From positions 1 to 64,000 of the forward strand of contig CBDCWZ010000010.1 of the NCBI GenBank assembly GCA_965223575.1: a DNA stretch of 64,000 nt, read 5' to 3'. Under the pieces are notes generated by a model. It had not been told where the DNA came from. It was given only the letters and a program-made list of their open reading frames with translations, and did no database searches. Position 1 is the first letter of the stretch. Each line of letters opens with the position of its first letter. This DNA is from Kofleriaceae bacterium. Lineage in GTDB: Bacteria; Myxococcota_A; Polyangia; Haliangiales; Haliangiaceae. Below are positions 6,973 to 25,900 of this stretch, piece after piece. Both the position numbers and the translations under genes were made by a program.

Positions 6973-7029
6973 CCGCACACCGAATGCCACGGGCCACAGA
7001 TCGGATCCGCGAGCCCGCCGGCATTCACT

Positions 7030-7117: not shown

Positions 7118-7118
7118 T

Positions 7119-7203: not shown

Positions 7204-7207
7204 CTGC

Positions 7208-7276
7208 GCCTCGCGGGACGGATCCCAGCTGGGTCTTCTAAACCCGGCGCTCCAGGTTCAATTCCTGGGCGAGGTA
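7208..7276 (+). tRNA. tRNA-Arg(TCT)
   Basis: acceptor gcctcgc/gcgaggt; anticodon stem tgggt/acccg, loop cttctaa; T-arm ccagg-ttcaatt-cctgg; short D-arm. Confidence 0.55.
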
Positions 7277-7277
7277 C

Positions 7278-9102: not shown

Positions 9103-9188
9103 GGGGACGCGTTTCGACGGGAATGGGGACGCGTTTCGGAAGTTCGGAACTTCACAATTAGATTTCCGAACTTTCGAAACACGTCCCC
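9103..9188. repeat. ~65-bp imperfect palindromic repeat (1.3 copies); family also at 10171-10234 and 11298-11360
   Basis: GGGGACGCGTTTCGGAAGTTCGGAAC-ttcacaattag-ATTCCGAACTTTCGAAACACGTCCCC; flanked by short tandem motifs (acgggatgg ×3; ccattgtt ×3). Confidence 0.8.
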
Positions 9189-9251
9189 ATTGTTCTATAT
9201 GGTCTGCCAATATTGGATCCTGGTTTTCGTGGGGTGCGAGGGACTGGTGCC

Positions 9252-9746
9252 CTACGCAGCGAAATCTTCTTCAACTACCCAGCCTTTTTTAGCTGAACGG
9301 AACCCAAGCCTGAGTGGTATTGCTTCTTCTTCGATTTCTTGCAGTCGATCGATAGGATATTGCTGAATTGGGTCAAAGGTGGTTGCTGCGAGTCGAAGAA
9401 GTCTATCTGCAGTCGAGTTCATTTTTTGCGATCCCGACTCCCATCGCGAAACCGTCTCACGCTCGACGCCAAAGTGTCGGGCGAAGTCAGTCCCAGACCA
9501 ACCGAGTGATTTTCTGAGGAATCGGATTTCCTCCGGTGTGAGACGAGCTGATTTGGTACTAATGGCATAGACGATGACCCGATGAAGTTCCTCGACTTTG
9601 GGAATCCCAACAAACGATTCACCGCACGCACCACAACGCTTTACATTCACACCAATCAAGGTGACGCGAACTCCTTGGGCGTCGTACAGGTGATTTTCTC
9701 TCGCTGACTTGAGTTGCCCACCACAATGTATGCACTTCATGTCCAT
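9252..9746 (-). CDS. MqsA/YgiT-like antitoxin (N-terminal CxxC…CxxC zinc finger + C-terminal XRE-type HTH)
   Basis: MDMKCIHCGG…CGACGESF then …RFLRKSLGWSGTDFARHFGVERETVSRWESG. Confidence 0.7.
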   Translation of the reverse strand: MDMKCIHCGGQLKSARENHLYDAQGVRVTLIGVNVKRCGACGESFVGIPKVEELHRVIVYAISTKSARLTPEEIRFLRKSLGWSGTDFARHFGVERETVSRWESGSQKMNSTADRLLRLAATTFDPIQQYPIDRLQEIEEEAIPLRLGFRSAKKGWVVEEDFAA

Positions 9747-10076: not shown

Positions 10077-10170
10077 TGAATCGAATGCCCCCTACTGATT
10101 GAAATATCAACAATTTCGATCGATTGGGAACTAGGGGGAACGGGATGGGAACGGGATGGGGAAACGGGAT

Positions 10171-10234
10171 GGGGACGCGTTTCGGAAGTTCGGAACTTTG
10201 CAATTAGATTTCCGAACTTTCGAAACACGTCCCC
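10171..10234. repeat. palindromic repeat copy 2
   Basis: same sequence family as 9103-9188. Confidence 0.8.
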
Positions 10235-10724
10235 ATTGTTTCTTCCTCATTGTTTCTCTCTTTCTGAAAAAAGGGGGTGAAACGAATAGACGTTTGTACC
10301 GAGGACCTTAATACATTGATCTCTGAGCAACTAAATATTGTTCGAAGAAAGTTTTTTCCTGCAAAACGTATTGAGGAACATCAGCCGAGGGCGAGTAGAA
10401 ACGAATCCAGAACAGTTGGAAGACTCCTCAACGACCCATTCTTTCTTAGCTGCACGAAACCCAACCCCCCATAGGTATCGCTTCCTCTTCGATCTCTTGC
10501 CGGTCAGGATCTCACCCGTCCGCTGAATGTTCCAGAGTGGCCGGCTTGAAGAACCTGGAAAGGGCGGGTGACGTACCGGACGTTACAGGGATCTGGGGTA
10601 CAAGCATCCGGATATTTGGGTTCCTGGGCATGACGGTAGTATTCTTCACTATGAACCCAACGAGTAGACTGGAGCGAACGCCCTCTTCGCGATAGAATGT
10701 GTGGATTGACCTGGGTATTGCAGT

Positions 10725-11273
10725 TTGGGAACAAAGGGGGGCATTTCTATGGTTCGTAAAGTTCTCATTGGACTGGCAGGATTAGCTGGTGTACTTGCCA
10801 CAGTTGCCTGGTTTACAACTTCGTCTCCCAATCAAAACGAGCTGCGAATGATCAATATTAAGAACGCCAAAAATTATTTGGGAGTGTTAGTCGGCGGGCA
10901 GCCCAGCGATGAGGAGCTGAGGCATGCCGCAAAGTCCGGCTATCAGACGATTATTAACTTGCGTACGGCTTCTGAACCGGGGAGCGCTGAAGAAAAAGTA
11001 CTCGCGGAAAAGCTCGGCCTTGTTTACGTTTCGATCCCGACAGCAGGGGAGGCCGGATTGACTCGGGAAAATGCAACAGCTTTGCACGAGGCACTCAAGG
11101 CGGCATCAGGGCCAGTCATGCTTCATTGCGGTAGTGGAAACCGCGTCGGTGGTCTGATTGCTTTGCGCGCACACTATTTGTTAGGAATGCCCGCCAACAC
11201 TGCGCTAGAGGAAGGCAAGAAAGCGGGTCTCACAGGACTCGAACCCGCTGTGACACGCATCCTCGGCCTGTAA
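10725..11273 (+). CDS. membrane-anchored phosphatase-like protein (TIGR01244/DUF442 'beta-lactamase hydrolase-like' dual-specificity phosphatase fold)
   Basis: HCGSGNRVGG (CX5R P-loop); N-terminal hydrophobic segment; start may be the ATG at 10749. Confidence 0.6.
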   Translation: MGTKGGISMVRKVLIGLAGLAGVLATVAWFTTSSPNQNELRMINIKNAKNYLGVLVGGQPSDEELRHAAKSGYQTIINLRTASEPGSAEEKVLAEKLGLVYVSIPTAGEAGLTRENATALHEALKAASGPVMLHCGSGNRVGGLIALRAHYLLGMPANTALEEGKKAGLTGLEPAVTRILGL

Positions 11274-11297
11274 CGGAACGACCAACTCAGGGGGGAT

Positions 11298-11360
11298 GGG
11301 GACGCGTTTCGGAAGTTCGGAACTTCGCAATTAGATTTCCGAACTTTCGAAACACGTCCC
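11298..11360. repeat. palindromic repeat copy 3
   Basis: same family; directly downstream of the phosphatase gene stop. Confidence 0.8.
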
Positions 11361-11489
11361 CATTGTTCCATTGTTTTCCCATTGTTTTCTTCGGGCTCGA
11401 TTAGGGGCGAACATCCTCACCGGAGCTGAAATGGAAAACGCCCGACCAGGAATGGAAACCTAACCGGCCGTCTTCAAACTGCTTTCGCG

Positions 11490-11567
<78 letters not shown>

Positions 11568-11733
11568 TGCGTTGTAAGTTACTGCAATACTTAAAGTTGT
11601 CAAGAGGCAATCCGGCATCGTTTCATTCATAAGTGCCTAGTCCCCGGTTTGGTCTCCGGTTTTTGGCAACAAACATCGGCACAATTTGGCGAATCCGATG
11701 CTACTGCTTTTCATCAAGCCCAACATTTGAATA

Positions 11734-11916
11734 GTGCTCTTGCATCTCGACGGTGACATGACCGGTCAACGCCCGCCGAACGACGGGGTCAATCTTCGCC
11801 CTTCGAATCATATCCGAAAACACGCACACGCTACGCTAAAGGTTCGCCAACAGCTACCAGTCAGGTGGTCGGATTCGCCCCAGGGCTTCGTCGGTTGCGA
11901 GTTCAAGTTCGGCTAA
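11734..11916 (-). pseudogene. C-terminal fragment of a tyrosine recombinase/integrase gene
   Basis: DNA 11750-11830 matches the 3' end of the integrase fragment at 20900-21000 (gtgaccggtcaacgcccgccgaacga…). Confidence 0.5.
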
Positions 11917-11929
11917 CTCGGTTACGGCA

Positions 11930-12330
11930 CCACGACTGGTCGTCTGCCCGTTTGCTCAAGTGGACGATGGGCTCCTAGGTCCGCCCACCAGATTTCACCG
12001 CACTTCATCTAGCATCTTCTTCATCTAGCATCTTCTTCATCTAGCATCTTCTTCAGCCAGCATCTCGCACCACTCATCTATTCCTTGATCGGCAAGGGCA
12101 AGATCTTCTTCCTCGCCGGTATTAGCGAGCCTATTTAGGTCCCACCGCGCGGGGTCGGGATGACGGAGCACAATCACAGAGACATGCTCGCCTTGGCGAA
12201 GATCTAGACGTTGGCTGGGTTTGAGCACACCGTCACTGTATTCAGCTTCGATCGGCTTCACATTCAATAGATTAGCACGTTCGGCAACTATGGGCTATCG
12301 CCGTGATTTTAGCCCTAGAAAAAGCAACAA
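11930..12330. repeat. ~400-bp direct repeat, copy 1 (copy 2 at ~32450-32860); carries a DUF104-like antitoxin gene and the 5' end of mazF
   Basis: long near-identical stretches, e.g. tttgctcaagtggacgatggg…ccaccagatttc…cttcatctagcatcttcttca…. Confidence 0.75.
12037..12267 (-). CDS. DUF104-like (COG2880) putative antitoxin
   Basis: MNVKPIEAEYSDGVLKPSQRLDLRQGEHVSVIVL; second, frameshifted copy at ~32657-32780. Confidence 0.5.
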   Translation of the reverse strand: MNVKPIEAEYSDGVLKPSQRLDLRQGEHVSVIVLRHPDPARWDLNRLANTGEEEDLALADQGIDEWCEMLAEEDAR

Positions 12331-12676
12331 AAGCGAGAATTTCAAACAGATCGAGCGGTGTCTTCCCAAGAGGTTCCTTCGTCGGGATCCCGTTCGTACT
12401 CTGCTAGCCGTTCGTCCAATACTTCGCGGTGCGACCGGCTCGTAGAGCTTATCGATCTCGGTGGGACTCATCGCATGTCTCCGCGCAAGTTCGTTGCTCT
12501 CCTGCGCAAAGTTGTGACCTTTGAGCGTTGTCGCCGATCCTCGACGTGCTGGTTTAAACCCCACGAGTCACCGCATATGCACTATCACTTGGCCAGCCGC
12601 TCAACAGCTGCCCCCGAGGCCGCGGTTACTCCGAGTGCAGAAGGCCAGACACTCGGAAAGAATTGTCCTGCGCAGC

Positions 12677-15600
12677 TCATTGCCGTTCGTCCAGTTCGGC
12701 AAGCAGCTTGGCCAGCACTTTGCTGCGCTCTGGATCGCGCAGTAGTGTTTCACACGCTGCAAGTAGCTCTGCGCGGTTGCCCAAGTAGGCATCGGTTGTC
12801 TTCTCCAGGTACCGCGCTACGCGGAACAAGTCTGAGATCGGGACGGCACTTTTCCGTTTGCGGGAAGCCCGAACTGGCAACCAGCGTGGTCTCTGTGCGG
12901 GCTTGCCGGTCGGGGCAGGCGCCTTCCACGGACCAGGAGGCCTTGGGCCGACACGGAGGGGGCGACCCTCGCGGGTTGACGCCGCGTCCACAGGTAGCCA
13001 GCGCGAACCGTCGTTTGTTTCAACCAGCGCCATTGCCCACAGGTGATCCGGCTCGTCTACGAAACCGCGGTCAAACGTCCAACCCGTAGCGACAACAGCG
13101 GGAATGCCGGCGCGCCGGAGCAGTTCGCAAGCCAGTGCGTTGAGCTCATAACAGACGCCACGCCCCAGGGTGTCGGCGTCACTGCTTGCGTGCAGCGCCG
13201 CGACGTGTACATTGGAACGGCCGCGGCTTCGCTGCCGGAGCCAGGCTGCAACAGAAGGATCTTCGAGATAGGTGGGATCGTAAACGTAGCGCTCTCGAAT
13301 GAAGGAACGCACCGTTTCGGCCGCTGTGAGTACATCGGTCTCGTTGCGCGCGCTCGCCGCAATATCGTGCACTTCGTCCGGTAATTCCGCGTCCGCCACC
13401 GTGGGTTCCAGAAGTGCTCTGGGCGCACGACGCGGTCGGTCGCCGTTTTCCATGTTGGGCGGTTCAAAGAGCTCAACCTCGACAGTCACGACGGCGTCCT
13501 CTTTGTTAAGCCAAACAGAAAGCCCAGCGGCGTCAACCAGATGATCGAGACCATTCCCCATACCGTCGGCCTGTAGGAGAGACACTTGACCAAATAGGGG
13601 CACGGGTATCACCGCCTCTCCACCAGGCAACTTACCCCGCAAACGGACTCGACCCACAGAATCGGTGCCACGAAACCACGATCCATCGCCCACGAAACGC
13701 TGCCAGCTCTGACTCCAGGAGCTAAAGCCCGCGTAGAGGACTTGTGGCGCGTACTGGTATGGAAGTGGCAGCGACGCGGGCGAGTGGGCGAGACCGAAAG
13801 TTCCCGCCCGCTGGCGGTCAGCAAGCCAGCCTGTTCCGTCGGCTAGTTGTTCCTCGAGATTGCTCCGCGATCGAAACCAGCGGCGATCGCGCTTGGGGTC
13901 ACGACGCGCTGGGGGCGGACGTCTTTGCGACCTCGACCCAGACGGACCGCCAGCTGGCGGCGGAGCAAAAGAGCTTGGCTCGGACTTCGTGGAGTCCCGG
14001 CGGTCTGGCCGCGGCTTGGTCTCCTCATCTTGTTTGTCGTTTCCACGCAGCCATTGCCGCATGCGTGTCAAGAACCCTGGGCCCTCTTCCCCTTTGGGTG
14101 GGCTGGGCTCGCTCGGCTTCGGCTTGGCGGACTCTTCTGGCTCTGCGCCATGCTGGAACGTCTCCTGGATTGTGGGGCCGGTTGCGTTCTCCACAACGCT
14201 TGGGGGGCGACTGGTTTCTCTCGCTCCAATGCTGCTTACTACGCCGTAATGAGCTAGGTAGCTGGCCCAGGCAGAATGTTGCGCACCGTCAGCGAGTACA
14301 ATTTCGAACTCGCCTACGCCTTCATCCCCTGCGAATCTAATCCGCGCCGCTGCTTCTGGTAGCAGGCATACGTACAATTCCTCGTGCCTGTGGCATGCTA
14401 CAGCAAGTTGAGGAGGCTTGTGGCCACCACTGTCTACCAGAAGATCGAGGCACCGCGGCAGACGTTCGGCCCAAAGTTTCCCTTCGGCCTTGGCGACGCC
14501 ATCGGCCCAGTCCACGGTTGCACACAATTCTGAAATAAAGGAGACCACGTCGCGCTTTCCGGGCCGGCGTGCGATGCGCAAGGCCGACGCGAGGCGCCCG
14601 AGCTGTGCTCCCCGTGACCAATCGCCTCGTTGGTCTCCGAACCGGTAGCGGGCACCTTCGATGACAACCTCCCCGGGTCGCCGGAGCACGCCCAGGTCGT
14701 CAACGAGCATTGGAACATGACTGAGCGCATCGCGTAACTTGGTGCCGTCGATGCTGCCGGATGTGAGACCGGCATTGAGCCATGCCAGTACCTCGCTGCT
14801 CGCAGGCGGCTGAGCGGCGATGGTGGCCAGCACGTCCTCGAGGTCCGCGCTGGCACTATCTCGGGTGCCGATCCATTCATGTGCGTTGGGCACCCGATGA
14901 ACGACTTCAGGATGCACGAGACGATCTTCGCGTTCCCCGATGAGATCAGTGAGGTTATCCGAGGGCCAGTACAGTGCCTCGGGACGATGGGGTGTGCCAT
15001 TCTGATCGACGAGCCACGTGCGGTCACGAAGGGCCAGGGCATTTCGCAACTCCGGAATGCGGTGACCCAACCCCGCTACGTAACACGCAAGAGCGACTTT
15101 GGCGTCCGGGCCCGGTTTCAGCGCATTGCCGTCGAGAAATGAGCGTAAAGCATCTTCGCTGAGTTCTGCATCGGCTCCCGCGGCGACAAGCAGCGCTACC
15201 GTTTCGGCGGCCTCGTAGCGGCGAGACACCCGCTGGGGCATCGGGTCGGCGAAGCGCGCAATCAGATCACCATCGTGCGGCGTAGACGCCAATAGGGTTC
15301 TGGGCCGCTTAAACTCGCCGCTGGCACTTTCGACTCGGAGACGTTTTCGCAGCTGCAAGCGGCGCACACGATCACCGAACCCCTCTTGGTCGGGCCGCAG
15401 CGCCCGCGCGAGATGAGCAATGATCGACGCGAGCCTGTCGCCATCACGAGCGTCAATCGCCGCATCGGCGGCATCTAGCAGCTTGTCGCTCAGGGGGCGT
15501 AGCTGTTTGGTTGCGGGTCGATAGGCTGCGCGTAGCCATGTGACAAGCCGACTGGGCAGCTCGTCGGCGGGATTCCAATCGATGCCCAGGTCGGGCAGCT

Positions 15601-17248
15601 CGCGATCAAACAGCAACTCTGTTGGCGCGCGCTGGGCCCCCTGCCCTGAACGGACAAACGCGATCTTTCCCAGTAAGCCACGACTCTGCTCATCGTCAGC
15701 AAATGCATCGCACCGCGCCTCGAGCCACTGATAGAAAGCACGGCGGATTTCGCCGTCGGCAAAAACGGTGCTGGCGTGGCCGGGAGTATCGACCAGCGCG
15801 GCGAGAACCTGCCGCGGATTGGCTTTGCCGACCGCATCCGCGTCGGCGGCATGGACGATCGCCGACCATCGCGGATGTCCGATCCTTTTGGCGAATGGAA
15901 GCTCGGCGCAGAATACAAGCTCATGTTCATCGCCGAGGAGCAGATCGCCCGGCACGAGTTCACCGACGAGATTGACTCCAACCGGCAGAGTTTCAAGAGT
16001 TGGACAGGACTCCGCAGCTCGGCCACGAACGAAGGCGACGGCAACCGCTGCTGCTCGCTCCGGTGTCGCCAGGAGCTCGGCCTGTTCGGCTACCGGGGTT
16101 CCCACCTTGGCGATGCGTGATAGTGCTCGCTCAAACGCAGTCAGAGGATTCGAGAAAGTGAGCCACGGCTCGAGTTGCTCAGCCTGCACGTCAGCTTCCG
16201 CCAAGAGCAAGCTCGCTTCGTCGTCATCGAGCGAACTTGACCACAACACGAAAGTATCGTCCTCAACCCAGCGAGTGATGTCCCGGCGGCGAAGGACTTT
16301 TGAGGCGGGCAACAGACCTTGTCGTGTCGGCCAGATCGGTAGTGCGTGCAACGCATCGACGTGCTCTTCCGCCAATCCCGGTAGTTGGTCGCGACTGTTG
16401 ATGAGGGCTTGGCGCAACGCCCATGGATCTGCATCGGGCGCTAGGCCGCCCCCCGCCACCTTGAGTAGATCCACAAAGCTCGCCGGCGGGCGACCAGCCG
16501 CTGCAAGAAAGACTTCCAGTCGGCGAGCCTCTGTCTCGGAAAGCAATGGTAATGCGGTGCCAGCAAACGCTTCGCGCAACTCCGCCGGCACGTGATGCGC
16601 AGAGTTAGCGGCCGGTGCGTCCCAACTGGCCAGTGGCCTGAATACACTGTCGTCACATTGAAAGATCGCAGCGTCGCACACACGGGCCAGGCGTACGCCG
16701 GGAAGATGGCGGCCCGCAGCCGCGAGCAAGTCCGCGATCGCGGACCGTACGTCAATATCCGCGACCGGTAGTGTAGACGTGGCATCACGGTTCTTGGCAG
16801 CGGGCTGCGTCGTCGCAGCGACGAGATCGTCCAAGGCAGTACCGAAGTTCGGGATAACGACCAAATGATCGAGAGCAAGAGCGCGCGCCAGATGCTGAGG
16901 ACTGCCAGGCTCAGTTCCTTCGGTAATGGTGGGCCGATAAGGCCAGCGCTCGTAGAGCGCAGCTACGGCGGGCTCTGTACTGGAATGGCGAAGCTGATGG
17001 ATCGGATAACGACTGCCATCCTCGCTCCGCCAGATCGGCGCAGCCGCCAGTGCCGCGATGGTTGTGGGACTGAGCGCCTCGCGGTGCGTTGCGAGATAAG
17101 CAAAGGCGGCATCTTGGAAGCGAACGTCTTCCTCGCCACCCAAAAGGGCGTTTGCCACTGAGTCGGCATCGACGATCTTGACACCAAGTTTTGCGACGTA
17201 TGGTAGTTCGGCAATGTCGCGGCGGACCCACGCACGCTGGGGCCACAA
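12677..17248 (-). CDS. C-terminal ~1,500 aa of a giant protein: Ala/Leu-rich helical region, Pro/Arg-rich low-complexity linker, C-terminal transglutaminase-like Cys protease domain; probably one gene with 16963-19992 via a frameshift near 17230-17260
   Basis: C-terminus GVCYELNALACELLRRAGIPAVVATGW…DHLWAMAL…D (Cys-His-Asp TGase core); N-terminus of this frame (…DIAELPYVAKLGVKIVDADS) is protein-like and continues where the upstream frame degenerates. Confidence 0.6.
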   Translation of the reverse strand: MWPQRAWVRRDIAELPYVAKLGVKIVDADSVANALLGGEEDVRFQDAAFAYLATHREALSPTTIAALAAAPIWRSEDGSRYPIHQLRHSSTEPAVAALYERWPYRPTITEGTEPGSPQHLARALALDHLVVIPNFGTALDDLVAATTQPAAKNRDATSTLPVADIDVRSAIADLLAAAGRHLPGVRLARVCDAAIFQCDDSVFRPLASWDAPAANSAHHVPAELREAFAGTALPLLSETEARRLEVFLAAAGRPPASFVDLLKVAGGGLAPDADPWALRQALINSRDQLPGLAEEHVDALHALPIWPTRQGLLPASKVLRRRDITRWVEDDTFVLWSSSLDDDEASLLLAEADVQAEQLEPWLTFSNPLTAFERALSRIAKVGTPVAEQAELLATPERAAAVAVAFVRGRAAESCPTLETLPVGVNLVGELVPGDLLLGDEHELVFCAELPFAKRIGHPRWSAIVHAADADAVGKANPRQVLAALVDTPGHASTVFADGEIRRAFYQWLEARCDAFADDEQSRGLLGKIAFVRSGQGAQRAPTELLFDRELPDLGIDWNPADELPSRLVTWLRAAYRPATKQLRPLSDKLLDAADAAIDARDGDRLASIIAHLARALRPDQEGFGDRVRRLQLRKRLRVESASGEFKRPRTLLASTPHDGDLIARFADPMPQRVSRRYEAAETVALLVAAGADAELSEDALRSFLDGNALKPGPDAKVALACYVAGLGHRIPELRNALALRDRTWLVDQNGTPHRPEALYWPSDNLTDLIGEREDRLVHPEVVHRVPNAHEWIGTRDSASADLEDVLATIAAQPPASSEVLAWLNAGLTSGSIDGTKLRDALSHVPMLVDDLGVLRRPGEVVIEGARYRFGDQRGDWSRGAQLGRLASALRIARRPGKRDVVSFISELCATVDWADGVAKAEGKLWAERLPRCLDLLVDSGGHKPPQLAVACHRHEELYVCLLPEAAARIRFAGDEGVGEFEIVLADGAQHSAWASYLAHYGVVSSIGARETSRPPSVVENATGPTIQETFQHGAEPEESAKPKPSEPSPPKGEEGPGFLTRMRQWLRGNDKQDEETKPRPDRRDSTKSEPSSFAPPPAGGPSGSRSQRRPPPARRDPKRDRRWFRSRSNLEEQLADGTGWLADRQRAGTFGLAHSPASLPLPYQYAPQVLYAGFSSWSQSWQRFVGDGSWFRGTDSVGRVRLRGKLPGGEAVIPVPLFGQVSLLQADGMGNGLDHLVDAAGLSVWLNKEDAVVTVEVELFEPPNMENGDRPRRAPRALLEPTVADAELPDEVHDIAASARNETDVLTAAETVRSFIRERYVYDPTYLEDPSVAAWLRQRSRGRSNVHVAALHASSDADTLGRGVCYELNALACELLRRAGIPAVVATGWTFDRGFVDEPDHLWAMALVETNDGSRWLPVDAASTREGRPLRVGPRPPGPWKAPAPTGKPAQRPRWLPVRASRKRKSAVPISDLFRVARYLEKTTDAYLGNRAELLAACETLLRDPERSKVLAKLLAELDERQ

Positions 17249-19992
17249 CGACTCGATTTCTTTATCGGCGGCAATCTCAGCAGCCCTTCGCCCCGCAACG
17301 GGCAGAGCTTGGCTGTCGCGGTCGGAAAAATGTCCGCGGCCGCGACCCGCTCAAACAGGGCTGCACTGATCTCACTCGCTTGCTCGTCGATGGCTCCATG
17401 AAGTAGGGCCACTTGCTCATGGGCGAAAGCGAGCTCGCCCCGCTCGAGGAGTGCAAGCGCTGCACGTAAATCCAGCAAAGGCGTACCGAGATCCGACAGC
17501 CCCGGACCCCACCGGTCTTCGATCTCCCGGCTCACCAGTGGAGGCCGCGTTTCAGCGTCGCGTACAAGATCTGCCAACGCGCCTTCGCCAGTCAGAAACG
17601 CGAGACCAACGCGGGCCCAATCGGCGCGGTCTGTGGGCACGAGAACCGCCTGATCGATACCAGACCGTTGGCCCAGAGGGGCAGCCAAGACGAGTTCCAT
17701 GATCGGATCGAGACCAGCAGCTTCGACCGCGGCGAGCGCCGCTTTCGGATCGGCAAGTCGCGAAATGAGATCCGCCACGGTTGCGCGTGGAACGCCAAGT
17801 CGCCTGACGAATGGTCGACACTCGGACGTGTCGAGTTCAGGCGCAAGCATTGGGCACAAGGGGCGCAGAGCGCTGGCGAGCACGCCACTTCCACGCAGAA
17901 GCTCGGTGGGGGAGCGTGCGCGGCCGGCGTGATCGGGTAAGCAGGGAAGTAACCGTAGGGGGGCGAGGTCGATGTCGGTAGCGCCGAGAGCGACAGCAAG
18001 CTCTGGAAGGTGCTCACGCCAGGGCGCCGAAAAGGCCGCACCAGATACTTGCGCTTCTGCTTCTCGGGCGAGCAACGCAACAACGCTGGACCAAGCGAGA
18101 TCCCGTGCACCCAGTTCTTTCGCGACTTGTTGATGGCGCGCACTGAGTACGTCAACAAGTCGCCTTTCATCCGCGATAACCAGCCCAGCAAGCGCACGCA
18201 CCACACCAGTATCGGCGCAGAGCAGAGCCTCCAACGGCGCGAGCCATCCGCCCCCAGCTGCGGGCAAGAACGCCACGGGCGCAACCTTGGCGGCGATTGA
18301 CTCATAAGCCGGATCTCCAAGCTCCGAGGGTAAGGAGAGGAGGTCGAGCAGTGAACTCGAACCTTGTTGCTCCTGATTGGTGAGCGTGGAAATGAGCTCG
18401 GCGAAGAGCTCGCCCGCTTGGTCGATTGCCCAGCGGTTCCACGGAGATGAAAGGTCCAGTCTCTCTCGATCTACGGGCAGGTCGAAGTGCGCGTGTAACA
18501 GCATTCGCAGGCCCGAGCGTTCGTTGGTAGGAAGGTAGCTGTACACGGTGGGCCGATCGCCCAAAGGCTCCGGCGTACCATCACCGGCCAACGCAATTGC
18601 GACCAACACAGGTGTGGCCGTTGTGCGGCTGGCATCGCGGGGGCCCTCGTAGCGGCATTCTCGTGAGCCAAGAAAGTAGGAGCGAGCGGCGTTGTTGTCG
18701 CGCAGGGTCACGTACTGATCATCCGCACCATGGCGAACGACGGAGCGTCTGCGACTGCCGTACCGTACATGAATCTCTCGCAACGAGTTTAGAGTTAGGA
18801 GCACTTCCGCTGGCAAATCTGCCATTCGTCCGAATAGGCGTTCTCCAGAGCGAGTCTCGTCAGTTGGGTCGCGTAGAGGCAGAATCAGCAACGTACGGTC
18901 CGGTGCGAGACCCGAGCGAGCTTTGAGCGGACGGGGAATCGAGACATCCGCAATCTCGAAGGCGTAGGCGCCAGAGTAGACCTGGGGACGCTCGCAAATC
19001 TCGTAGACCGACTTGAATCCGACACCGAAGAAACCGATTTGGTCTTTGCTCTTCGTCGTCTGGCCAATGGAAAGGAGACCGACAACGTCGCGAGCGTCAA
19101 AGGGGGCGCCGTCGTGCTCGACCTCGACGCGATCCTCTTCGAGACGCAGGTGCCACACACGAGCGCCCGCGTCGTCGGCGTTTTGTAGAAGCTCGATGAG
19201 AAAGTGCCCGGGGTCGGTATAGATCTGACGTGAGAGAAGCTGCTCTGCGTTGGCCTGGCTCAAAGACTTGGGTTGCGCCTCTAGTGTGTCTAGCAGTTCT
19301 GCCGCGAAACTAGCCAGTCGCGCGTTCCACGCTTCACTCACGTCCGCGTTCGCGGCTATTGCTGCCAGCTCGACAGTGTTTGCGCCGGGTATGCGCATAA
19401 GCTCGCGATCGCCAATTCTGTCTAGGGCCCCGGTACCCAGTGCTTCGCGACAGATGTTCAAGGCCCCGTCCACCATAGAACTGCGTGCCGATGGCGCGAC
19501 GTTCTTGAGCCACCGATCGATGACGGCAAAGGCCGTGATGCGCGTGGCCGGCAGTTCTGCAGCACACCGCACGAGAGCTTCAGCGAATTCAATCACAGCC
19601 GGCGCCCCCTCGAGCGCGCGCAAAACCCTCCGAAGGCCAGTGTCGGGTAGTGCTGTAACCACGCTCGCGATTGAGTCCGCTGAGCCGACGAGCTCGCCGC
19701 TAACCGCGAGATTCGCCAGCATCCGTGCCAGGGGTTCGTGATCGCGAAAGGAGGCAAGTTCAGTGACCAGATCGGGTCCACGCCCCTGGCGAAGAGCTTC
19801 GTCAATGGCGACAATCTGCTCGGGAAACGGCAACCGCCGTAGTGCTGATGGCTCGCTGGTCAACTGGGCCAATCTACCAGCATGATCAGAGTAAGGCCAT
19901 ACCGGCAGCCACAGGCGTATTGTCACCCAAAGGGGCCGCTCGAAAGACGCGATCCGCGGCGTATTCGTCGGGCGATCACCATGCTGTTCCAT
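16963..19992 (-). CDS. N-terminal part of the giant protein: sacsin/Hsp90-like GHKL ATPase domain; last ~100 codons of this frame look non-coding, so the true reading frame probably shifts into 12677-17248
   Basis: SRQIYTDPGHFLIELLQNADDAGA (GHKL N-box as in the sacsin SRR/Hsp90-like ATPase), then GLLSIGQTTK, GFFGVGFKSVYEI; true start codon unclear (ORF start overlaps terminase fragments). Confidence 0.6.
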   Translation of the reverse strand: MEQHGDRPTNTPRIASFERPLWVTIRLWLPVWPYSDHAGRLAQLTSEPSALRRLPFPEQIVAIDEALRQGRGPDLVTELASFRDHEPLARMLANLAVSGELVGSADSIASVVTALPDTGLRRVLRALEGAPAVIEFAEALVRCAAELPATRITAFAVIDRWLKNVAPSARSSMVDGALNICREALGTGALDRIGDRELMRIPGANTVELAAIAANADVSEAWNARLASFAAELLDTLEAQPKSLSQANAEQLLSRQIYTDPGHFLIELLQNADDAGARVWHLRLEEDRVEVEHDGAPFDARDVVGLLSIGQTTKSKDQIGFFGVGFKSVYEICERPQVYSGAYAFEIADVSIPRPLKARSGLAPDRTLLILPLRDPTDETRSGERLFGRMADLPAEVLLTLNSLREIHVRYGSRRRSVVRHGADDQYVTLRDNNAARSYFLGSRECRYEGPRDASRTTATPVLVAIALAGDGTPEPLGDRPTVYSYLPTNERSGLRMLLHAHFDLPVDRERLDLSSPWNRWAIDQAGELFAELISTLTNQEQQGSSSLLDLLSLPSELGDPAYESIAAKVAPVAFLPAAGGGWLAPLEALLCADTGVVRALAGLVIADERRLVDVLSARHQQVAKELGARDLAWSSVVALLAREAEAQVSGAAFSAPWREHLPELAVALGATDIDLAPLRLLPCLPDHAGRARSPTELLRGSGVLASALRPLCPMLAPELDTSECRPFVRRLGVPRATVADLISRLADPKAALAAVEAAGLDPIMELVLAAPLGQRSGIDQAVLVPTDRADWARVGLAFLTGEGALADLVRDAETRPPLVSREIEDRWGPGLSDLGTPLLDLRAALALLERGELAFAHEQVALLHGAIDEQASEISAALFERVAAADIFPTATAKLCPLRGEGLLRLPPIKKSSRCGPSVRGSAATLPNYHTSQNLVSRSSMPTQWQTPFWVARKTFASKMPPLLISQRTARRSVPQPSRHWRLRRSGGARMAVVIRSISFAIPVQSPP

Positions 19993-20473
19993 GCATGGGC
20001 GAGTGCATCGACCTGGTCGTCGTAGCGATCACGAACGCCGGGGAAGGCGTTGAGTTCGGCGAGGAAGTCGGGTAGCCAAGGCGCTGCAGTCGGGACATAG
20101 ACGCGCCCGTCGTTCCACCGAGCGGGTCATTGCCCTCGGCCAGCGCGGGCAGGTTGATGACCTCCCAGGAGCCCGTCTGTTCGAGGCGACCGATGAGGTC
20201 GTCTTGATGCCACCGGGTCTGGATGACGATCACGGAGGCGCCTTAGAGCCTGGTGAACACGACTTCGTTGAACCATTGCCAAACGGTCTCGCGACGCAAG
20301 GCGCTGTCAGCTTCCTCGCGGTTCTTGAGCGCGTCGTCCACGACCATCAAGCCCGACACACCCTGCCCTGTGAGTCCGCCACCGGCGCCACCCGCAAGGA
20401 GGCCACCGCTATGGAGGGTTCGCCACTCGGAGAGATTGTGAGAGTCACTGGCCAACTCGACACCAGCATCCAA
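19976..20473 (-). pseudogene. phage terminase large-subunit gene fragments (frameshifted)
   Basis: IVIQTRWHQDDLIGRL (terminase ATPase WH[E/Q]DDL motif) and ETVWQWFNEVVFTRL in adjacent frames. Confidence 0.5.
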
Positions 20474-20513
20474 AGCCAGCCGGCGAGCAATACGTGACTT
20501 CGACTTGGCGAGG

Positions 20514-20870
20514 TCATCGTTGTAGATTGCCGGCTACATAGAGTTGCGAGGAATCGTCAGTCGACCTCCGGTACCGCCGTTTGCGAAAGGCATAGAGGCC
20601 CATTTCTCGCATGATTCGAGCGACGCGGTGACGACCAGCAATGCAGCCTCGCTCTCGCAGCGCGTGAGTCATACGCGGGCTCCCATAGCTGTGGCGGGTT
20701 TCTTCGAAGATTTCCTCGATGTGCTCGCGCAGGTCTGCGTTTTGCTCGTCTCGGTTACACGGGCCTCGCGTGAGCCATGCGTAGTACCCGCTCCGTGAAA
20801 CTTCAAGAGCGTCGCATAACGCACGGATGCCGTATTTTGCCTTCTGCGCGTGAACGAATGCATATCTCAC
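20514..20870 (-). pseudogene. IS3-family transposase OrfB N-terminal fragment
   Basis: YGSPRMTHALRERG…RHRVARIMREMGL (HTH_21 region of IS3 InsF-like); integrase core absent. Confidence 0.6.
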
Positions 20871-21412
20871 TCGTTTTCGCTCGCACAGAAGGCCGCGAAC
20901 TTTTTTAGAATTTCACGCTCTGTCTCAAGTTTTGCCACCCGCTTGTGTGTCCCCTGTTCTACGGTGACGTGACCGGTCAACGCCCGCCGAACGACTGGAT
21001 CAATTTTCGCTCGGCGAATTATATCGGAAAACGTGTAGCTTAATCCATTGGGCGTAAATCGCTTGGCAGGATGCTTGGCGTCCTCAGGGTGCCCACGCTT
21101 GATGGGAACATCCAACCCGTCTGAATACCAGCGGATTGTTGTTTTGATCATTGCACGTCGATGTTCACGGAGAATATCAGCAACTTCCGACTCCACTGGA
21201 TACTCTTTGGGGGCTCTTTTTTTGTTTGTAACTTTTCCAATTCTACCACGCACTTGTTTGCGTCTAATGTGCAACACACTATGCTCATCATCCCAGTCCT
21301 CCCAGCGCAGAGCACTCGCGTGACAAAATCTCAACCCGGTATAGGCAAGCACCACCACCAAGGCAAAATGTTGCGGAAACCGATCTCGCATCGCCACAAG
21401 AAACTGCATCAA
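20867..21412 (-). pseudogene. tyrosine recombinase (phage integrase) C-terminal catalytic fragment
   Basis: LAYTGLRFCHASALRWEDW…HIRRKQVRG…LTGHV…; 181 aa, lacks N-terminal SAM-like domain. Confidence 0.65.
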
Positions 21413-22951: not shown

Positions 22952-25900
22952 GTGACCGGTCGGCGGCGAATCGGCAAAACTACTTTGATTCAGAAGGCCC
23001 TCGGGTCTGAACGGAAACACGGGGTTTTTTACATCCAAATTCCCGACTCAGGTCCTGCTGGTGTTCTGTCTGGAATTGCAGACGCTATGGATACTTTTGC
23101 GATTAATGAGGACGCCTTTCCTCGGCCAACGAATCTATCGCAGCTCGCCAGCATAGTGGGCCAACTGGCGCGCGCGGGCTATATTGTAGCGCTCGATGAG
23201 TTTCAGTATTTCAATCGTGCGAGACTGAAGGACTTCTGCTCACTGCTTCAGAGCGAGGTCGACAGACTATCGTCAGATGCCGAGAAGTATGCGCCCAATG
23301 CGCCCCATGTAGCATGAATCATCTGGCGGCAGTATTGTCGCTACATGGAACCATGCGGTTCAACAAACTCGATCGGTTTATTCCTGATCGACAATCTTCT
23401 CAGCGAGCCATTGAGCAGGGGTAGCGGTTCTCAGCTGGTTGGCGGAGATGCCGGCGGCGATTCTGTGAAAGATGTCTCTGAGATACTCGTAGGGGTTGGC
23501 GCCGACAAGGGTGCAGTTGAGCACAGCAGTCATGATGGTGGCGTAGCGTTGTCCTGCTTCGCGAGAGCCGACGAAGAGTGCATTTTTGCGAACCAGCGTA
23601 ACGATCCGGAGCGCACGCTCGACATGGGCATTGGAGATCGGCACCGAACCGAACTGCAAAAACAGGCCCAGGGCTTCGCGCTGCCGAGTCCAGTAGGTAA
23701 GCGCTTTGGCCAAGGGGGTACGAGATTTCCTCTGTTGGGCAAACTTGGCAACATAAGCATCGATGTCCGCAATCATGGCAACAGAATGTTGTTGACGAAG
23801 CGCGAGGCGTTGTTCGTCAGTCATCTGGTTGTCCTGGGCGTAACGCTCCACCTGATACAGTCTTGCCATCAAATCGATGACTGGTGCAGCTCGTTTGTCA
23901 CCACTGTCGAGCGCATGAACAAATTTTCTACGCGAATGGTCCATACAGCCAGCCTGCCGTGGTGGGGCCAATCCTCGATAGAGTTTTTTGATTCCCGCAT
24001 ATCCATCATGTTGCGTGTTGCCCTGAAATTCGGCGAGAAGTTTACAAGGGTAAATCCCTTTCCAGTCCGGCGAAAATTCACAATACGCGGTCCGCCCGCG
24101 ATCGCCCAAATAGATCCAAAATCGCCCACGCTGAATGTTTTTGGGATGGGCAGGATTTTGCATTGGCATGGGGGTATCGTCAAAGCTGATCAGTGCGCTC
24201 TTGAGTAGGTCTGTCTTGGCGCCTGGGTTAAAAACGGATAACAGCTCGGCCCCTTGCGCATACCACTGTCCCAATGTTTTGTCAGATAGCTCGATCCCGC
24301 GTCGCAGCAATGCGGTGCTTTGACGATACAGAGGCATCGCGTCGCAGACTTTGCTCGTCATGATTTGCGCCATCAGGCTGGGGGTTACCACGGAGCCTGG
24401 GATCAGTTTGGGCGTTAAATTCCCGCTGACAATGCCGTCTTTGCAGTCACGACACGCGTATTTATGAGCGCGTTCTTCGCGGACGAAGGCATGTTGCTGG
24501 TTCAAATTCTAGGTGCACTGTTTTGTCGAAACCAATGTGGTCCTTTTCGCGATTGCAGCCATTACAGTGGCGTTCCGAATCAGGGGGATGTTTGTCGTCG
24601 ATCACTCGCTCGAGATTGTCTAAATTTGTGGTCCGCTTCTTACGCTTTTTTCTCTTGTGAGCAGGAGTCTTCGATCGTTTCCTTTGGTAAGTCCGAAGGC
24701 CCCCTCGGCCACCATGTATTCTAGGAGCGCGAGTGACAACTGAGCCGGGGAGATTTTTTCTGAGCTCGGACGATATTTCGACGCAATCTGCCTCCGCATA
24801 CCATCGATTTCTTGTTTCATGCGCTCAATGATCGGCATGGCTTCGGCAAGAACTTCTTGGCCGGCTTCACGCTCCTTGTCCGTTGCCAGATTGGCAGTGA
24901 CCGAAACAAGAAATTCGTGAATCGATGCCGTATCGATAGAGCCTTCCCACGTCCCCACACCTCCTTGTATCACGCGTGTCCGACATTCTCACCTTTACGA
25001 AACTCTTGATTGCGATTGTTTTTCCGCGAAGAAGTTTCGCCAAATCCTCTGCTTTGATCTCGATCGTGTTCCTGATCTTGTTTGGGAATCGGAAATGTCC
25101 CAGACTCAAGTCGCTTCGCCAAAATGCAATATCCCTGCTGATCAAAAAACAAAATCTTGAGCAGATGACGCCGACGATTGGCAAATACGTATAGATGGCC
25201 GGTTTCTGGATCTGCGTCCAGCGCTTCACGAACAACCTTCGCAAGACCATCAAACTGTTTCCTCATGTCAACAGGATTCACTGCCACAAAAACGCGGACC
25301 TTCGTCGGTAGCGTTAACATGAGCCATCCAGAGAGTTTGCCCACTCGCAGACATTCTCGCCGATCCGACTTGGAACAAAACAATAAACGCCTGCCGTTTT
25401 TGAGAACGAGCTCGTAGCGGGGTTCTCCGCTCAAAGCAATCTCGTCACGAACCTTTACTTCAACAAATTCTGTCTGGCCAGATTGTTTTTCACGCCTCTG
25501 CCAACTCCATAACGCAGACGCCGAGATCCCATGATGTTTGCCAAATTCTACCGCAGACCGATTGCTCTTCTGCCATGCGCGGAGAATCTTTCGCTGCTCT
25601 GCACGACTTCTTTGAATCCGTTTTTGCATTCCATGCGGTTTAACTCGACAGGCTGCTGCGCGAAACATGGGGCTCACGGGGCGCATACGCCGAGAACGTC
25701 TCTGGGGGGACTGCTCGTTCTGGGATCCATTCACACCGAGATGTCCACGCTTCTAGAAGATCGGAGCGCTCCGTTATTCAATCGCACCACCGACGAAATC
25801 GCGCTATCTCACCTGGACGTTGGTTCCCTAATCAAATTGCTGGACGCGCATACTGATTCGACGCCAGAGCGACTGTTATTTCTTTGGAATATGTTCGAGG

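What the first reader, a model, noticed from the sequence alone, without database searches (positions are those of the whole stretch)
12677..19992. Giant (~2,400 aa) protein with N-terminal sacsin/Hsp90-like GHKL ATPase and C-terminal transglutaminase-like protease, split by one frameshift
Frame 16963-19992 carries the GHKL N-box ELLQNADDAGA with downstream G-rich boxes, as in sacsin and Hsp90-like ATPases. Its last ~100 codons look like non-coding translation (Ser/Arg/Pro-rich). Exactly there the other frame (12677-17248) starts looking protein-like and runs 1,500 aa to a Cys-His-Asp transglutaminase-like domain (GVCYELNALACELL…DHLWA). Together they make a single giant multidomain protein: ATPase, long helical scaffold, Pro/Arg-rich linker, TGase-like protease. 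It sits between ~400-bp direct repeats carrying toxin-antitoxin remnants and next to prophage debris. This domain combination in a mobile context suggests a conflict or defence effector, and I know of no characterised system matching it. The frameshift may be a sequencing error or a true pseudogenisation.
Basis: partly seen in the sequence, partly recalled or inferred. Interest (0 to 1): 0.8.

Follow-up and report, generated by a model that had tools for sequence, protein, structure and literature searches.

The report
Giant sacsin-like ATPase–transglutaminase gene, frameshifted
The two long reading frames are one roughly 2,400-residue gene of an uncharacterised protein family of myxobacteria, with an Hsp90/sacsin-type ATPase at one end and a transglutaminase-fold cysteine enzyme at the other; the single-base break is most likely a sequencing error, and nothing beyond its position in this contig ties the gene to mobile or defence DNA.

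Summary

The host is itself a myxobacterium. The family is almost entirely Myxococcota, sits among ordinary chromosomal genes with no conserved partner, and was not found on plasmids or phages. The prophage and toxin-antitoxin debris here looks incidental. Only the ATPase module resembles TmtA of the Tiamat defence system, so the gene is not a Tiamat member.

The frameshift is probably technical. A TPR gene in the window has a second one-base homopolymer frameshift. The biotin carboxylase gene is broken by at least 10 frame switches while its pieces stay close to consensus.

Verdict: a new, divergent member of a catalogued but uncharacterised family; moderate interest.

The parts
12677..19863 (-). 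The whole gene: 2,395 codons plus stop once one G is restored at 17284-17286. The likely start is the TTG at 19863.
   Evidence: The repaired ORF has no internal stop. It aligns end to end with 11 full-length homologues, which begin about 7 residues before 'LRxLPFP'. More than 100 homologues of 2,300-2,750 aa carry SACS plus Transglut_core.
19864..19992 (-). 43-codon in-frame extension from the ATG at 19992. Probably not translated; it overlaps the end of a terminase-large remnant.
   Evidence: Absent from most aligned homologues and not conserved in the few that carry extra N-terminal residues. ORF 19976-20233 hits PHROG terminase large subunit.
19243..19863 (-). N-terminal all-helical domain, about 12 helices (residues 44-250, numbered from the ATG at 19992).
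18358..19242 (-). Sacsin/Hsp90-type GHKL (Bergerat) ATPase plus transducer-like domain (residues 251-545). N-box ELLQNADDA at 19168-19194, HDGAPF at 19099-19116, G2 box IGFFGVGF at 19015-19038, invariant DLPVDRERLD at 18454-18483.
14225..18357 (-). Central scaffold of about 1,380 aa, specific to this family, with a weakly recurring hairpin motif (P-h-h-P-x3-G-x-h-x2-P-x2-L, about 10 copies). It contains the frameshift.
   Evidence: phmmer against 1.84 billion representatives finds 120 clusters. Most are 2,000-2,900 aa and match at about residues 850-1,950; the shorter ones are most simply gene fragments. Weak cross-hits between repeat seeds. Only faint TmtA hits, E 0.01-0.05.
17284..17286 (-). 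Frameshift site: a GGG run in GAAGGGCTG, one base short relative to the frame of the homologues.
   Evidence: The codon GGG (17286-17284) and the next in-frame codon GCT (17284-17282) share base 17284.
16963..17283 (-). Out-of-frame tail of the upstream ORF (106 codons, Ser/Arg/Pro-rich). A by-product of the frameshift, not protein.
   Evidence: It has no counterpart in the homologues, whereas the other frame over the same bases aligns with them.
13886..14224 (-). Low-complexity linker rich in Pro, Arg, Glu and Ser (residues about 1926-2038). Its length varies among homologues.
   Evidence: Composition P 18.6%, R 12.4%, E 10.6%, S 10.6%. Gap-rich, variable alignment columns 2301-2500.
12923..13885 (-). 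β-sandwich domain plus transglutaminase-like core. Triad: Cys2283 (13151-13153), His2319 (13043-13045), Asp2338 (12986-12988).
   Evidence: Pfam Transglut_core 9.3e-11. The triad is invariant in 12 and in 36 sequences. AF2 model m87b270e66342, pLDDT 92. Foldseek against PDB: TgpA periplasmic domain 6g49 at E 6.6e-10 over 320 columns, and putative Cys protease 3isr at 3.8e-7.
12680..12844 (-). C-terminal three-helix bundle, after a Pro-rich connector.
   Evidence: AF2 helices H367-381, H388-400 and H402-418 of the 419-aa fragment. Conserved in the homologues.
19976..21412 (-). Context: prophage and mobile-element debris directly upstream of the gene (terminase-large fragments, transposase fragment, integrase fragment).
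   Evidence: PHROGs hits. Weak Pfam Phage_integrase hit.

Best explanation
Shown: window 12677-19863 (minus strand) is one chromosomal gene for a soluble, probably cytoplasmic protein of about 2,395 aa. It belongs to a small family found almost only in Myxococcota. The architecture is: helical N-domain; sacsin/Hsp90-type GHKL ATPase with a transducer domain; about 1,400 aa of family-specific scaffold; a disordered Pro/Arg linker; a β-sandwich plus transglutaminase-fold Cys-His-Asp enzyme; and a helical tail.

Inferred, about 70%: the single-base break in the GGG run at 17284-17286 is an assembly or sequencing indel, not biology. The same contig carries other homopolymer and indel errors, and the gene shows no other lesion. 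The source annotation therefore calls two artificial proteins (1009 aa and 1395 aa).

Inferred, about 45%: mechanism. Like other GHKL proteins (Hsp90, MutL, MORC, GyrB), the N-terminal module binds ATP and dimerises as a clamp. This conformational cycle passes through the long scaffold, which holds a protein client. It gates the C-terminal transglutaminase-fold cysteine enzyme, which cleaves, deamidates or cross-links that client. On this reading the protein is a lineage-specific cellular protein-remodelling machine, sacsin-like in logic, and not cargo of a mobile element. The prophage, IS and toxin-antitoxin debris around it in this contig is incidental.
For: One gene: end-to-end alignment with full-length homologues across the junction. 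A single added G restores the ORF. More than 100 homologues of 2,300-2,750 aa carry SACS plus Transglut_core. The scaffold occurs in essentially no other architecture among 1.84 billion representatives.

Domains. The residues listed for ATP binding and hydrolysis in sacsin and Hsp90 (PMC9880540, Table 1, read) are present. E267, L268, N271, D274, A275, F298, G320, G323, G325 and F326 are invariant in the 12-sequence alignment; D294 is Asp or Asn in the family, as in sacsin. The TGase triad is invariant. There is no transmembrane segment.

Native gene in a non-mobile context: the best named GltD hits are Kofleriaceae, Haliangium and Myxococcales. GC3 equals that of host housekeeping genes. Neighbourhoods of homologues are housekeeping or metabolic, with no conserved partner. 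Kofleriaceae loci are syntenic. The family-specific part has no match on plasmids or phages.

Artefact: a second 1-nt homopolymer frameshift lies in the TPR gene (AAAA at 59817-59820). Removing one A gives a 1080-aa ORF, and Pfam TPR_9 and ANAPC3 hits span the junction. The biotin carboxylase gene at about 60800-62141 switches frame at least 10 times in about 500 bp, yet each piece stays near consensus. That pattern cannot come from neutral decay. In the giant gene every family-invariant residue on both sides of the break is intact, and 7.2 kb contain no stop.
Against: No reads or platform information were available, so the artefact call is indirect. The region does hold at least one real pseudogene, an ADP-ribosylglycohydrolase-Macro gene with an internal deletion. 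gltB (4.6 kb) is error-free, so a true slippage mutation is not excluded.

No member of the family has been studied experimentally, so the mechanism rests on analogy. ATPase activity of sacsin-type domains is itself debated (PMC9880540 abstract). The protein evolves faster than its neighbours (65-66% identity against 74-95%), and its ATPase module is related to TmtA of Tiamat. Both observations would also fit a conflict role.
Confidence: 0.55

Rival explanations
1. The frameshift is real: a very recent replication-slippage deletion in the G-run has inactivated the gene in this population. The cell would make a truncated protein (903 native residues plus 106 junk residues) and perhaps no C-terminal half.
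For: The gene sits in a decaying region with truncated terminase, integrase, transposase and IS66 genes and an internally deleted ADPRGH-Macro gene. Its native upstream region has been replaced by prophage debris to within about 130 nt of the likely start. Long housekeeping genes nearby (gltB, gltD) are intact, so the error rate is not uniformly high.
Against: There is no second lesion in 7.2 kb, and all invariant residues are retained. Two other genes in the same window show indel-type breaks. One of them is the normally essential biotin carboxylase gene, with at least 10 frame switches but near-consensus peptides, which is a technical signature.
Confidence: 0.28
2. The family is a single-protein conflict or anti-phage system related to Tiamat. 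The sacsin-type GHKL module senses or is triggered by an invader, and the transglutaminase-fold domain is the effector protease or cross-linker.
For: Nine PADLOC TmtA models hit the ATPase module, the best at E 9.4e-49. The same module occurs at about 30% identity in plasmid-borne proteins annotated as DUF3883-domain or HSP90-family. In the literature, transglutaminase-like peptidases are fused to predicted conflict-system proteins (PMC3710099 and PMC8195603). The protein diverges faster than its syntenic neighbours. In this window it lies beside prophage and TA debris.
Against: The TmtA similarity covers only about 24-28% of the models, and the N-helical and TGase parts have no PADLOC hit. 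No homologue examined lies in a defence island or mobile element, and neighbourhoods are housekeeping. Inheritance is syntenic and vertical among Kofleriaceae. No copy was found on plasmids or phages. The phyletic range is narrow, unlike the wide horizontal spread typical of defence genes.
Confidence: 0.2
3. Two genuinely separate genes, or one gene that needs programmed -1 ribosomal frameshifting or transcriptional slippage.
For: The source annotation calls two proteins (P0128, 1009 aa; P0248, 1395 aa).
Against: The tail of ORF1 is junk, while the other frame over the same bases aligns with the homologues. All complete homologues are single ORFs. The site (GAA GGG CTG) is not an X XXY YYZ slippery heptamer, and a 3-nt run is too short for transcriptional slippage (sequence; established knowledge).
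Confidence: 0.02

Closest known systems
Eukaryotic sacsin (SACS; SR1 / HSP-NRD plus HSP-MRD module; PDB 5v44-5v47)
   Different: There is one ATPase module, not three SIRPT repeats. No UBL, DnaJ or HEPN domain was detected. The N-helical domain, the central scaffold and the TGase module have no counterpart in sacsin. It is bacterial (Myxococcota). It is not an orthologue.
TmtA of the Tiamat anti-phage system (PADLOC PDLC03964-03972)
   Same: The GHKL-plus-transducer module matches TmtA models at E 1e-48 to 1e-16. There is a faint recurrence of the hairpin motif in the scaffold. Both are large single proteins with unknown mechanism; reviews list Tiamat as uncharacterised (PMC12926258).
   Different: Only about a quarter of the TmtA models is matched. 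TmtA models do not match the N-helical domain or the TGase module. Tiamat is enriched in genomic-island hotspots (PMC12629846), whereas this family sits in ordinary chromosomal contexts.
TgpA (Pseudomonas aeruginosa) and COG1305-type transglutaminase-like putative cysteine proteases (PDB 6g49, 3isr)
   Same: The same two-domain module, a β-sandwich followed by a papain-like TGase core with a Cys-His-Asp triad (Foldseek E 6.6e-10, TM 0.59-0.61 normalised to the target). Pfam Transglut_core.
   Different: The solved TgpA domain is periplasmic, and TgpA is membrane-anchored (from my own knowledge). Here there is no signal peptide or transmembrane segment, and the module is the C-terminus of a 2,400-aa ATPase. 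Sequence identity is only 13-15%.
Hsp90 family (HtpG, TRAP1, GRP94) and other GHKL clamps (MutL, MORC, GyrB/ParE)
   Different: NCBIfam HtpG and HSP90 models score far below their cut-offs (17.5 bits against 455; 14.8 against 371). There is no Hsp90 C-terminal dimerisation domain. The lid and motif II are of the sacsin type.
Plasmid- and archaeal-borne sacsin-like GHKL proteins annotated as DUF3883-domain or 'HSP90 family' proteins
   Same: The ATPase module is 24-36% identical over 120-380 residues.
   Different: Their C-terminal parts differ (annotations include DUF3883, HNH and NERD). None matches the scaffold plus TGase half.

Membership tests
GHKL (Bergerat-fold) ATPase, sacsin/Hsp90 branch | Curated profile match (Pfam SACS PF25794; NCBIfam NF047352) | tested here: met
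   50.6 bits against cut-off 32.8; 84.1 bits against cut-off 50.
GHKL (Bergerat-fold) ATPase, sacsin/Hsp90 branch | N-box with catalytic Glu and Mg-binding Asn (ExxxNAxDA) | tested here: met
   ELLQNADDA. E267, N271, D274 and A275 are invariant in 12 sequences and still invariant or nearly so in 36. It aligns to sacsin ELIQNAEDA.
GHKL (Bergerat-fold) ATPase, sacsin/Hsp90 branch | Adenine-contacting Asp/Asn (Hsp90 D79, sacsin N160) and G2 box GxxGxG(F) | tested here: met
   D294 is D or N in the family. F298, G320, G323, G325 and F326 are invariant. Residue correspondence taken from PMC9880540 Table 1 and the alignment.
GHKL (Bergerat-fold) ATPase, sacsin/Hsp90 branch | Bergerat fold followed by a transducer or middle domain | tested here: met
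GHKL (Bergerat-fold) ATPase, sacsin/Hsp90 branch | Catalytic Arg supplied by the middle domain (Hsp90 R380, sacsin R474) | tested here: inconclusive
   R509 and R511 in the invariant DLPVDRERLD are candidates. No residue-level superposition was possible.
GHKL (Bergerat-fold) ATPase, sacsin/Hsp90 branch | ATP binding and hydrolysis, ATP-dependent dimerisation | not testable with these tools
   Needs biochemistry.
Sacsin proper (eukaryotic SACS orthologue) | Three SIRPT repeats plus UBL, DnaJ and HEPN domains | tested here: not met
   There is a single SACS hit, and no DnaJ, HEPN or ubiquitin-like hit at E <= 0.1.
Tiamat defence system (TmtA) | Match to a TmtA model over most of its length | tested here: not met
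   The best hits cover model positions 41-396 of 1486 and 5-459 of 1655. The segments beyond the ATPase give E >= 0.01 or nothing.
Tiamat defence system (TmtA) | Location in defence islands or mobile elements | tested here: not met
   Homologue neighbourhoods are housekeeping or metabolic. The family-specific half is absent from plasmids and phages. Only this window shows mobile-element debris.
Tiamat defence system (TmtA) | Protection against phage | not testable with these tools
   Needs an experiment.
Transglutaminase-like superfamily (Transglut_core; TgpA/COG1305 type) | Curated profile match | tested here: met
   PF01841, 42.4 bits against cut-off 23.
Transglutaminase-like superfamily (Transglut_core; TgpA/COG1305 type) | Cys-His-Asp catalytic triad | tested here: met
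   C2283, H2319 and D2338 are invariant in 12 and in 36 sequences.
Transglutaminase-like superfamily (Transglut_core; TgpA/COG1305 type) | Papain-like TGase core preceded by a β-sandwich domain | tested here: met
   AF2 pLDDT 92. Foldseek TgpA 6g49 at E 6.6e-10 over 320 columns, and 3isr at E 3.8e-7.
Transglutaminase-like superfamily (Transglut_core; TgpA/COG1305 type) | Membrane anchoring and periplasmic location, as in TgpA | tested here: not met
   No hydrophobic 19-residue window free of charged residues; the top window contains D and R.
Transglutaminase-like superfamily (Transglut_core; TgpA/COG1305 type) | Reaction catalysed (proteolysis, transamidation or deamidation) | not testable with these tools
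   Needs biochemistry.
Myxococcota SACS-scaffold-TGase giant protein family (uncharacterised; NCBI 'transglutaminase-like domain-containing protein') | End-to-end colinearity with full-length members, including the family-specific scaffold | tested here: met
   31-49% identity to 11 members over the whole length. 98% query coverage to P0001-P0005. The scaffold is found only in this family.
True pseudogene | The lesion is present in the organism's DNA, and further decay has accumulated | tested here: inconclusive
   There is a single 1-nt lesion and no other decay. The contig shows technical-looking indels elsewhere. Reads were not available.

The most novel reading that the evidence does not exclude
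The Myxococcota SACS-scaffold-TGase proteins are a previously undescribed class of ATP-gated protein-modifying machines. A sacsin-type GHKL clamp controls a transglutaminase-fold protease or cross-linker, and the whole acts as a chromosomally fixed, single-protein conflict system (against phage, or related to predation or kin discrimination). It would be evolutionarily linked both to Tiamat and to eukaryotic sacsin. The copy in this window is then simply a mis-assembled or freshly broken allele.
Probability: 0.2. Interest if true: 0.7.

Novelty: new member of a known kind. Interest (0 to 1): 0.35.

Why it matters
Two things are useful here.

First, a practical one. The source annotation splits a 2,395-aa gene into two artificial proteins. 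The same contig contains other indel-type breaks (a TPR gene and the biotin carboxylase gene). Apparent 'pseudogenes' in this MAG should therefore not be read as biology without the reads.

Second, the family itself is worth a look. About 120 clusters at 50% identity, nearly all from Myxococcota, combine the closest bacterial structural match to the human ataxia protein sacsin's ATPase domain with a TgpA-like transglutaminase-fold enzyme. None has been studied. A cultured carrier exists (Haliangium ochraceum, P0029). A tractable bacterial model could therefore address two debated questions: whether sacsin-type GHKL domains hydrolyse ATP, and what the related Tiamat ATPase does.

Tried and rejected
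- Looking up the window's own proteins for their source contig failed: 'not on record'. The listing of cluster members showed only that the contig is a 65,422-bp NCBI/ENA record.
- An exact-pattern scan of JGI metagenome contigs for the junction, allowing GGG or GGGG, found nothing. No independent copy of the locus is available. The nearest protein relative is only 47% identical.
- Horizontal acquisition from a high-GC myxobacterium, suggested by 62% GC against about 56% for gltBD: rejected. GC3 is the same as in host genes, so the excess GC comes from an Ala/Arg/Gly/Pro-rich composition.
- A conserved partner gene or operon: all-against-all clustering of flanking ORFs over 23 loci found nothing beyond the synteny of close relatives.
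- Programmed frameshifting: rejected on site sequence and because no homologue shares the shift.
- Literature: searches for Tiamat/TmtA and for sacsin-like with anti-phage gave no mechanism and no description of this architecture. The Millman et al. 2022 preprint held in the library does not use the name Tiamat or mention HATPase, Hsp90 or GHKL.
- Technical failures: alignments of 68-82 full-length sequences failed, so 36 were used. The afdb50 fold library was unavailable.
- The first frame-0 piece of the biotin carboxylase gene gave no PDB hit; two other pieces did.
- I considered that the 80-nt hairpin repeats might be integron attC sites. I did not pursue it: there is no GTTRRRY-type core by eye and no Rfam hit.
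Full report
**1. What is in the sequence**

On the minus strand, ORF 16963-19992 (1009 aa) and ORF 12677-17248 (1523 aa) overlap in different frames.

- ORF1 passes the curated cut-offs of Pfam SACS (PF25794, 50.6 bits) and of NCBIfam 'sacsin N-terminal ATP-binding-like domain' (NF047352, 84.1 bits).
- ORF2 passes Pfam Transglut_core (42.4 bits) at GVCYELN...DHLWA.
- The last 106 codons of ORF1 are Ser/Arg/Pro-rich junk. Over the same bases the ORF2 frame reads '...AAEIAADKEIESLWPQRAW...'.

A conceptual fusion retrieved 219 proteins. More than 100 of them are 2,300-2,750 aa long and carry both Pfam domains. The best is only 47% identical.

An alignment with 11 full-length homologues is colinear from end to end, and the junction fits without a gap. 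The window has PLRGEG|AAEIAADKEI; P0001 has PLVGDGRAEIPADDDI. The codon GGG (17286-17284) and the next in-frame codon GCT (17284-17282) share one base. One nucleotide is therefore missing at a GGG run. Restoring GGGG gives a single ORF with no internal stop.

Homologues start about 7 residues before 'LRxLPFP'. This matches the TTG at 19863, not the ATG at 19992, and gives 2,395 aa.

**2. Anatomy**

Residues are numbered from the ATG at 19992.

- **PDB sequence matches:** sacsin SR1 is the only significant one.
- **ATP-site residues:** the residues that Perna et al. list as needed for ATP binding and hydrolysis in Hsp90 and sacsin (PMC9880540, Table 1) are all present. E267, L268, N271, D274, A275, F298, G320, G323, G325 and F326 are invariant in the 12-sequence alignment. 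D294 is Asp or Asn in the family, and sacsin has Asn at that position.
- **Residues about 546-1925:** a scaffold with a weakly recurring hairpin motif.
- **How exclusive the scaffold is:** a filter-free phmmer scan of 1.84 billion representatives with 1,100 aa of it found only 120 clusters. Most are 2,000-2,900 aa and match at the same relative position; the shorter ones are most simply gene fragments. The scaffold therefore looks exclusive to this family.
- **Residues about 1926-2038:** a variable Pro/Arg/Glu/Ser linker.
- **The last 419 aa:** the model has pLDDT 92 and shows a β-sandwich, a papain-like TGase core and a three-helix tail.
- **Closest structures to the C-terminal module:** Foldseek's best PDB matches are the periplasmic domain of P. 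aeruginosa TgpA (6g49, E 6.6e-10, 320 columns) and a Cytophaga putative cysteine protease (3isr).
- **Catalytic triad and location:** Cys2283, His2319 and Asp2338 are invariant. There is no transmembrane segment.

**3. Whose gene is it, and in what context**

GltD of the window has its best named relatives in Kofleriaceae, Haliangium, Myxococcales and Myxococcota, at 63-72% identity. The host is therefore a myxobacterium.

A scan of one genome per GTDB species found 25 loci. Nearly all are Myxococcota MAGs, with a few bins labelled Planctomycetota or Thermoleophilia.

The gene's GC3 (0.63) equals that of host housekeeping genes (0.60-0.65). There is no compositional sign of import.

Clustering of the flanking ORFs of 23 loci found no conserved neighbour beyond the synteny of close relatives. 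Annotated neighbourhoods contain the following, with no mobile or defence genes:

- TonB/ExbBD and a TonB-dependent receptor;
- rpsB-tsf-pyrH-frr;
- nadA and thiC;
- aldo-keto reductases and FGE-sulfatases.

Among three Kofleriaceae loci the gene is syntenic. It is 65-66% identical, against 74-95% for its neighbours. That means vertical inheritance with relatively fast divergence.

The scaffold-plus-TGase half has no tblastn match in 72,556 plasmids or 50,697 phages. The ATPase module alone matches plasmid proteins annotated as DUF3883-domain or HSP90-family, at about 30% identity.

In this window the gene is indeed surrounded by debris:

- terminase-large, transposase and integrase fragments directly upstream;
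- an IS66 element;
- TA remnants inside a repeat of about 420 bp, 11929-12347 against 32483-32861;
- a tRNA-Gly gene with an integrated element of about 11 kb on its other side.

Given the contexts of the relatives, I read this debris as insertions next to a resident gene, not as evidence that the gene is cargo.

**4. Is the frameshift real?**

No reads were available, and no independent copy of the locus exists. Three observations point to a technical indel.

- **(a)** The gene has no other lesion. 7.2 kb contain no stop, and every family-invariant residue on both sides is intact.
- **(b)** The TPR gene at 57165-60408 has the same kind of defect. Removing one A from AAAA at 59817-59820 gives one 1080-aa ORF, and the Pfam TPR_9 and ANAPC3 hits span the repaired junction.
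- **(c)** The biotin carboxylase gene near the contig end switches frame at least 10 times within about 500 bp.
  - Its N-terminal ORF carries Biotin_carb_N and only the first 68 positions of the ATP-grasp domain.
  - Piece 61323-61457 matches residues 289-333 of a solved biotin carboxylase.
  - Piece 61204-61293, in another frame, matches residues 342-370 of the same chain.
  - All pieces stay near consensus.

Many indels with few substitutions, in a normally essential gene, is not what neutral decay produces. It is what an under-polished consensus produces.

Against this, gltB and gltD are clean. The region also holds a genuine internally deleted gene, ADPRGH-Macro. I put artefact at about 70% and a very recent real slippage mutation at about 28%. 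Programmed frameshifting is excluded for practical purposes: there is no slippery heptamer, the run is only 3 nt, and no homologue shares the shift.

**5. How it most likely works**

Shown: the domain set, the intact catalytic motifs of both enzymes, the lack of any transmembrane segment (hence probably cytoplasmic), the stand-alone gene, and the narrow vertical distribution.

Inferred from established GHKL mechanism (Hsp90, MutL, MORC, GyrB): ATP binding closes a lid and dimerises the N-domains, and the transducer domain couples hydrolysis to a distal conformational change.

Inferred from the TgpA/COG1305 fold with an intact Cys-His-Asp triad: a thiol enzyme that acts on protein Gln or peptide bonds by proteolysis, deamidation or transamidation.

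My best reading (about 45%) is an ATP-gated protein-remodelling machine. The scaffold holds a client, and the GHKL cycle controls access of the C-terminal cysteine enzyme to it. This is a lineage-specific cellular function with sacsin-like logic.

The main functional rival (about 20%) is a Tiamat-like conflict system with a protease effector. In its favour are the TmtA similarity, the faster divergence and literature precedents for TGase-like peptidases in predicted conflict-system proteins (PMC3710099, PMC8195603). Against it are the genomic contexts and the absence from mobile replicons.

**6. Comparison with what is known**

Membership is met for the sacsin/Hsp90 branch of GHKL domains, for the Transglut_core superfamily, and for the uncharacterised Myxococcota family that NCBI labels 'transglutaminase-like domain-containing protein' or 'sacsin N-terminal ATP-binding-like domain-containing protein'.

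Membership is not met in three cases.

- **Sacsin proper:** there is one ATPase module, and no UBL, DnaJ or HEPN domain.
- **Tiamat TmtA:** only about a quarter of the models is matched, and the context differs.
- **TgpA:** this protein is not membrane-anchored.

Reviews list Tiamat's mechanism as unknown (PMC12926258). My literature searches found no description of the GHKL-scaffold-TGase architecture.

**7. Verdict**

The 'defence effector in a mobile context' reading is weak, and the frameshift is most likely a sequencing error. The gene is a new and divergent member (47% identity or less to any relative) of a catalogued but unstudied family. Interest is moderate (0.35) and attaches to the family, not to this locus.

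Noticed in passing
window 3228-7277 (+), with repeats at 3031-6232: A dense array of 16 tRNA genes (Gln, Phe, Glu, Ala x2, Ile, His, Gly, Thr x2, Gln, Asn, Leu, Ser x2, Arg). It is interspersed with direct repeats of about 85-95 nt and followed or interrupted by HNH endonuclease ORFs (6364-6972, 7660-8850). It looks like a phage- or island-borne tRNA array.
   Followed up: partly
window 20-71 and 11485-11536; tRNA-Gly(ccc) at 11490-11564 (-): The 3' half of tRNA-Gly is repeated (52 nt, 88% identical) about 11.4 kb away. The two copies bracket the tRNA array, the HNH genes, an MqsA-like antitoxin and a phosphatase. This is the signature of an element integrated at tRNA-Gly.
   Followed up: partly
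window 9119-9198, 10165-10244, 11292-11371: Three copies (91-96% identical) of an 80-nt near-perfect hairpin (RNA fold -47.5 kcal/mol, z = -7.35). They separate the MqsA-like (9252-9746, minus strand) and DSP-phosphatase (10725-11273, plus strand) ORFs. There is no Rfam match, and their nature is unknown: a REP- or MITE-like element, a terminator, or a recombination site.
   Followed up: partly
window 57165-60408 (-), AAAA at 59817-59820: A TPR-repeat gene is split by a 1-nt homopolymer frameshift. Deleting one A gives one 1080-aa ORF, and Pfam TPR models span the junction.
   Followed up: yes
window about 60800-62141 (-): The biotin carboxylase (accC-like) gene is broken by at least 10 frame switches within about 500 bp, while each piece remains close to consensus. 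This indicates locally poor consensus quality near the contig end. Other 'pseudogenes' in this contig should be treated with caution.
   Followed up: yes
window 27000-28024 (-): An ADP-ribosylglycohydrolase-Macro fusion gene has lost the middle of the glycohydrolase domain (profile positions about 60-233). This is a genuine deletion, not a frameshift.
   Followed up: partly
window 11701-11829 (-) and 20867-21412 (-): Two tyrosine-recombinase (integrase) fragments in the same orientation flank the giant gene and share a 75-nt stretch at 87% identity (11747-11821 against 20958-21032). They could be relics of two related integrative elements. No case was found that they mobilise the gene.
   Followed up: partly
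window 12037-12267 (-), 32299-33069 (-), 9252-9746 (-): Toxin-antitoxin remnants, read by eye from the translations: a DUF104/AF2212-like antitoxin-type ORF duplicated at 32657-32950, a PemK/MazF-like ORF at 32299-32562, and an MqsA zinc-ribbon fragment at 32899-33069. The fuller MqsA-like ORF at 9252-9746 has a Pfam hit.
   Followed up: partly
window 23378-25734 (-): IS66-family element: a DDE transposase of 375 aa, apparently N-terminally short, plus an IS66 Orf2-like ORF.
   Followed up: no
L029 1017-7610: In the locus of homologue P0004, the gene directly upstream encodes another giant protein (2,197 aa) with no Pfam hit, itself preceded by a Ser/Thr kinase-TPR protein.
   Followed up: no
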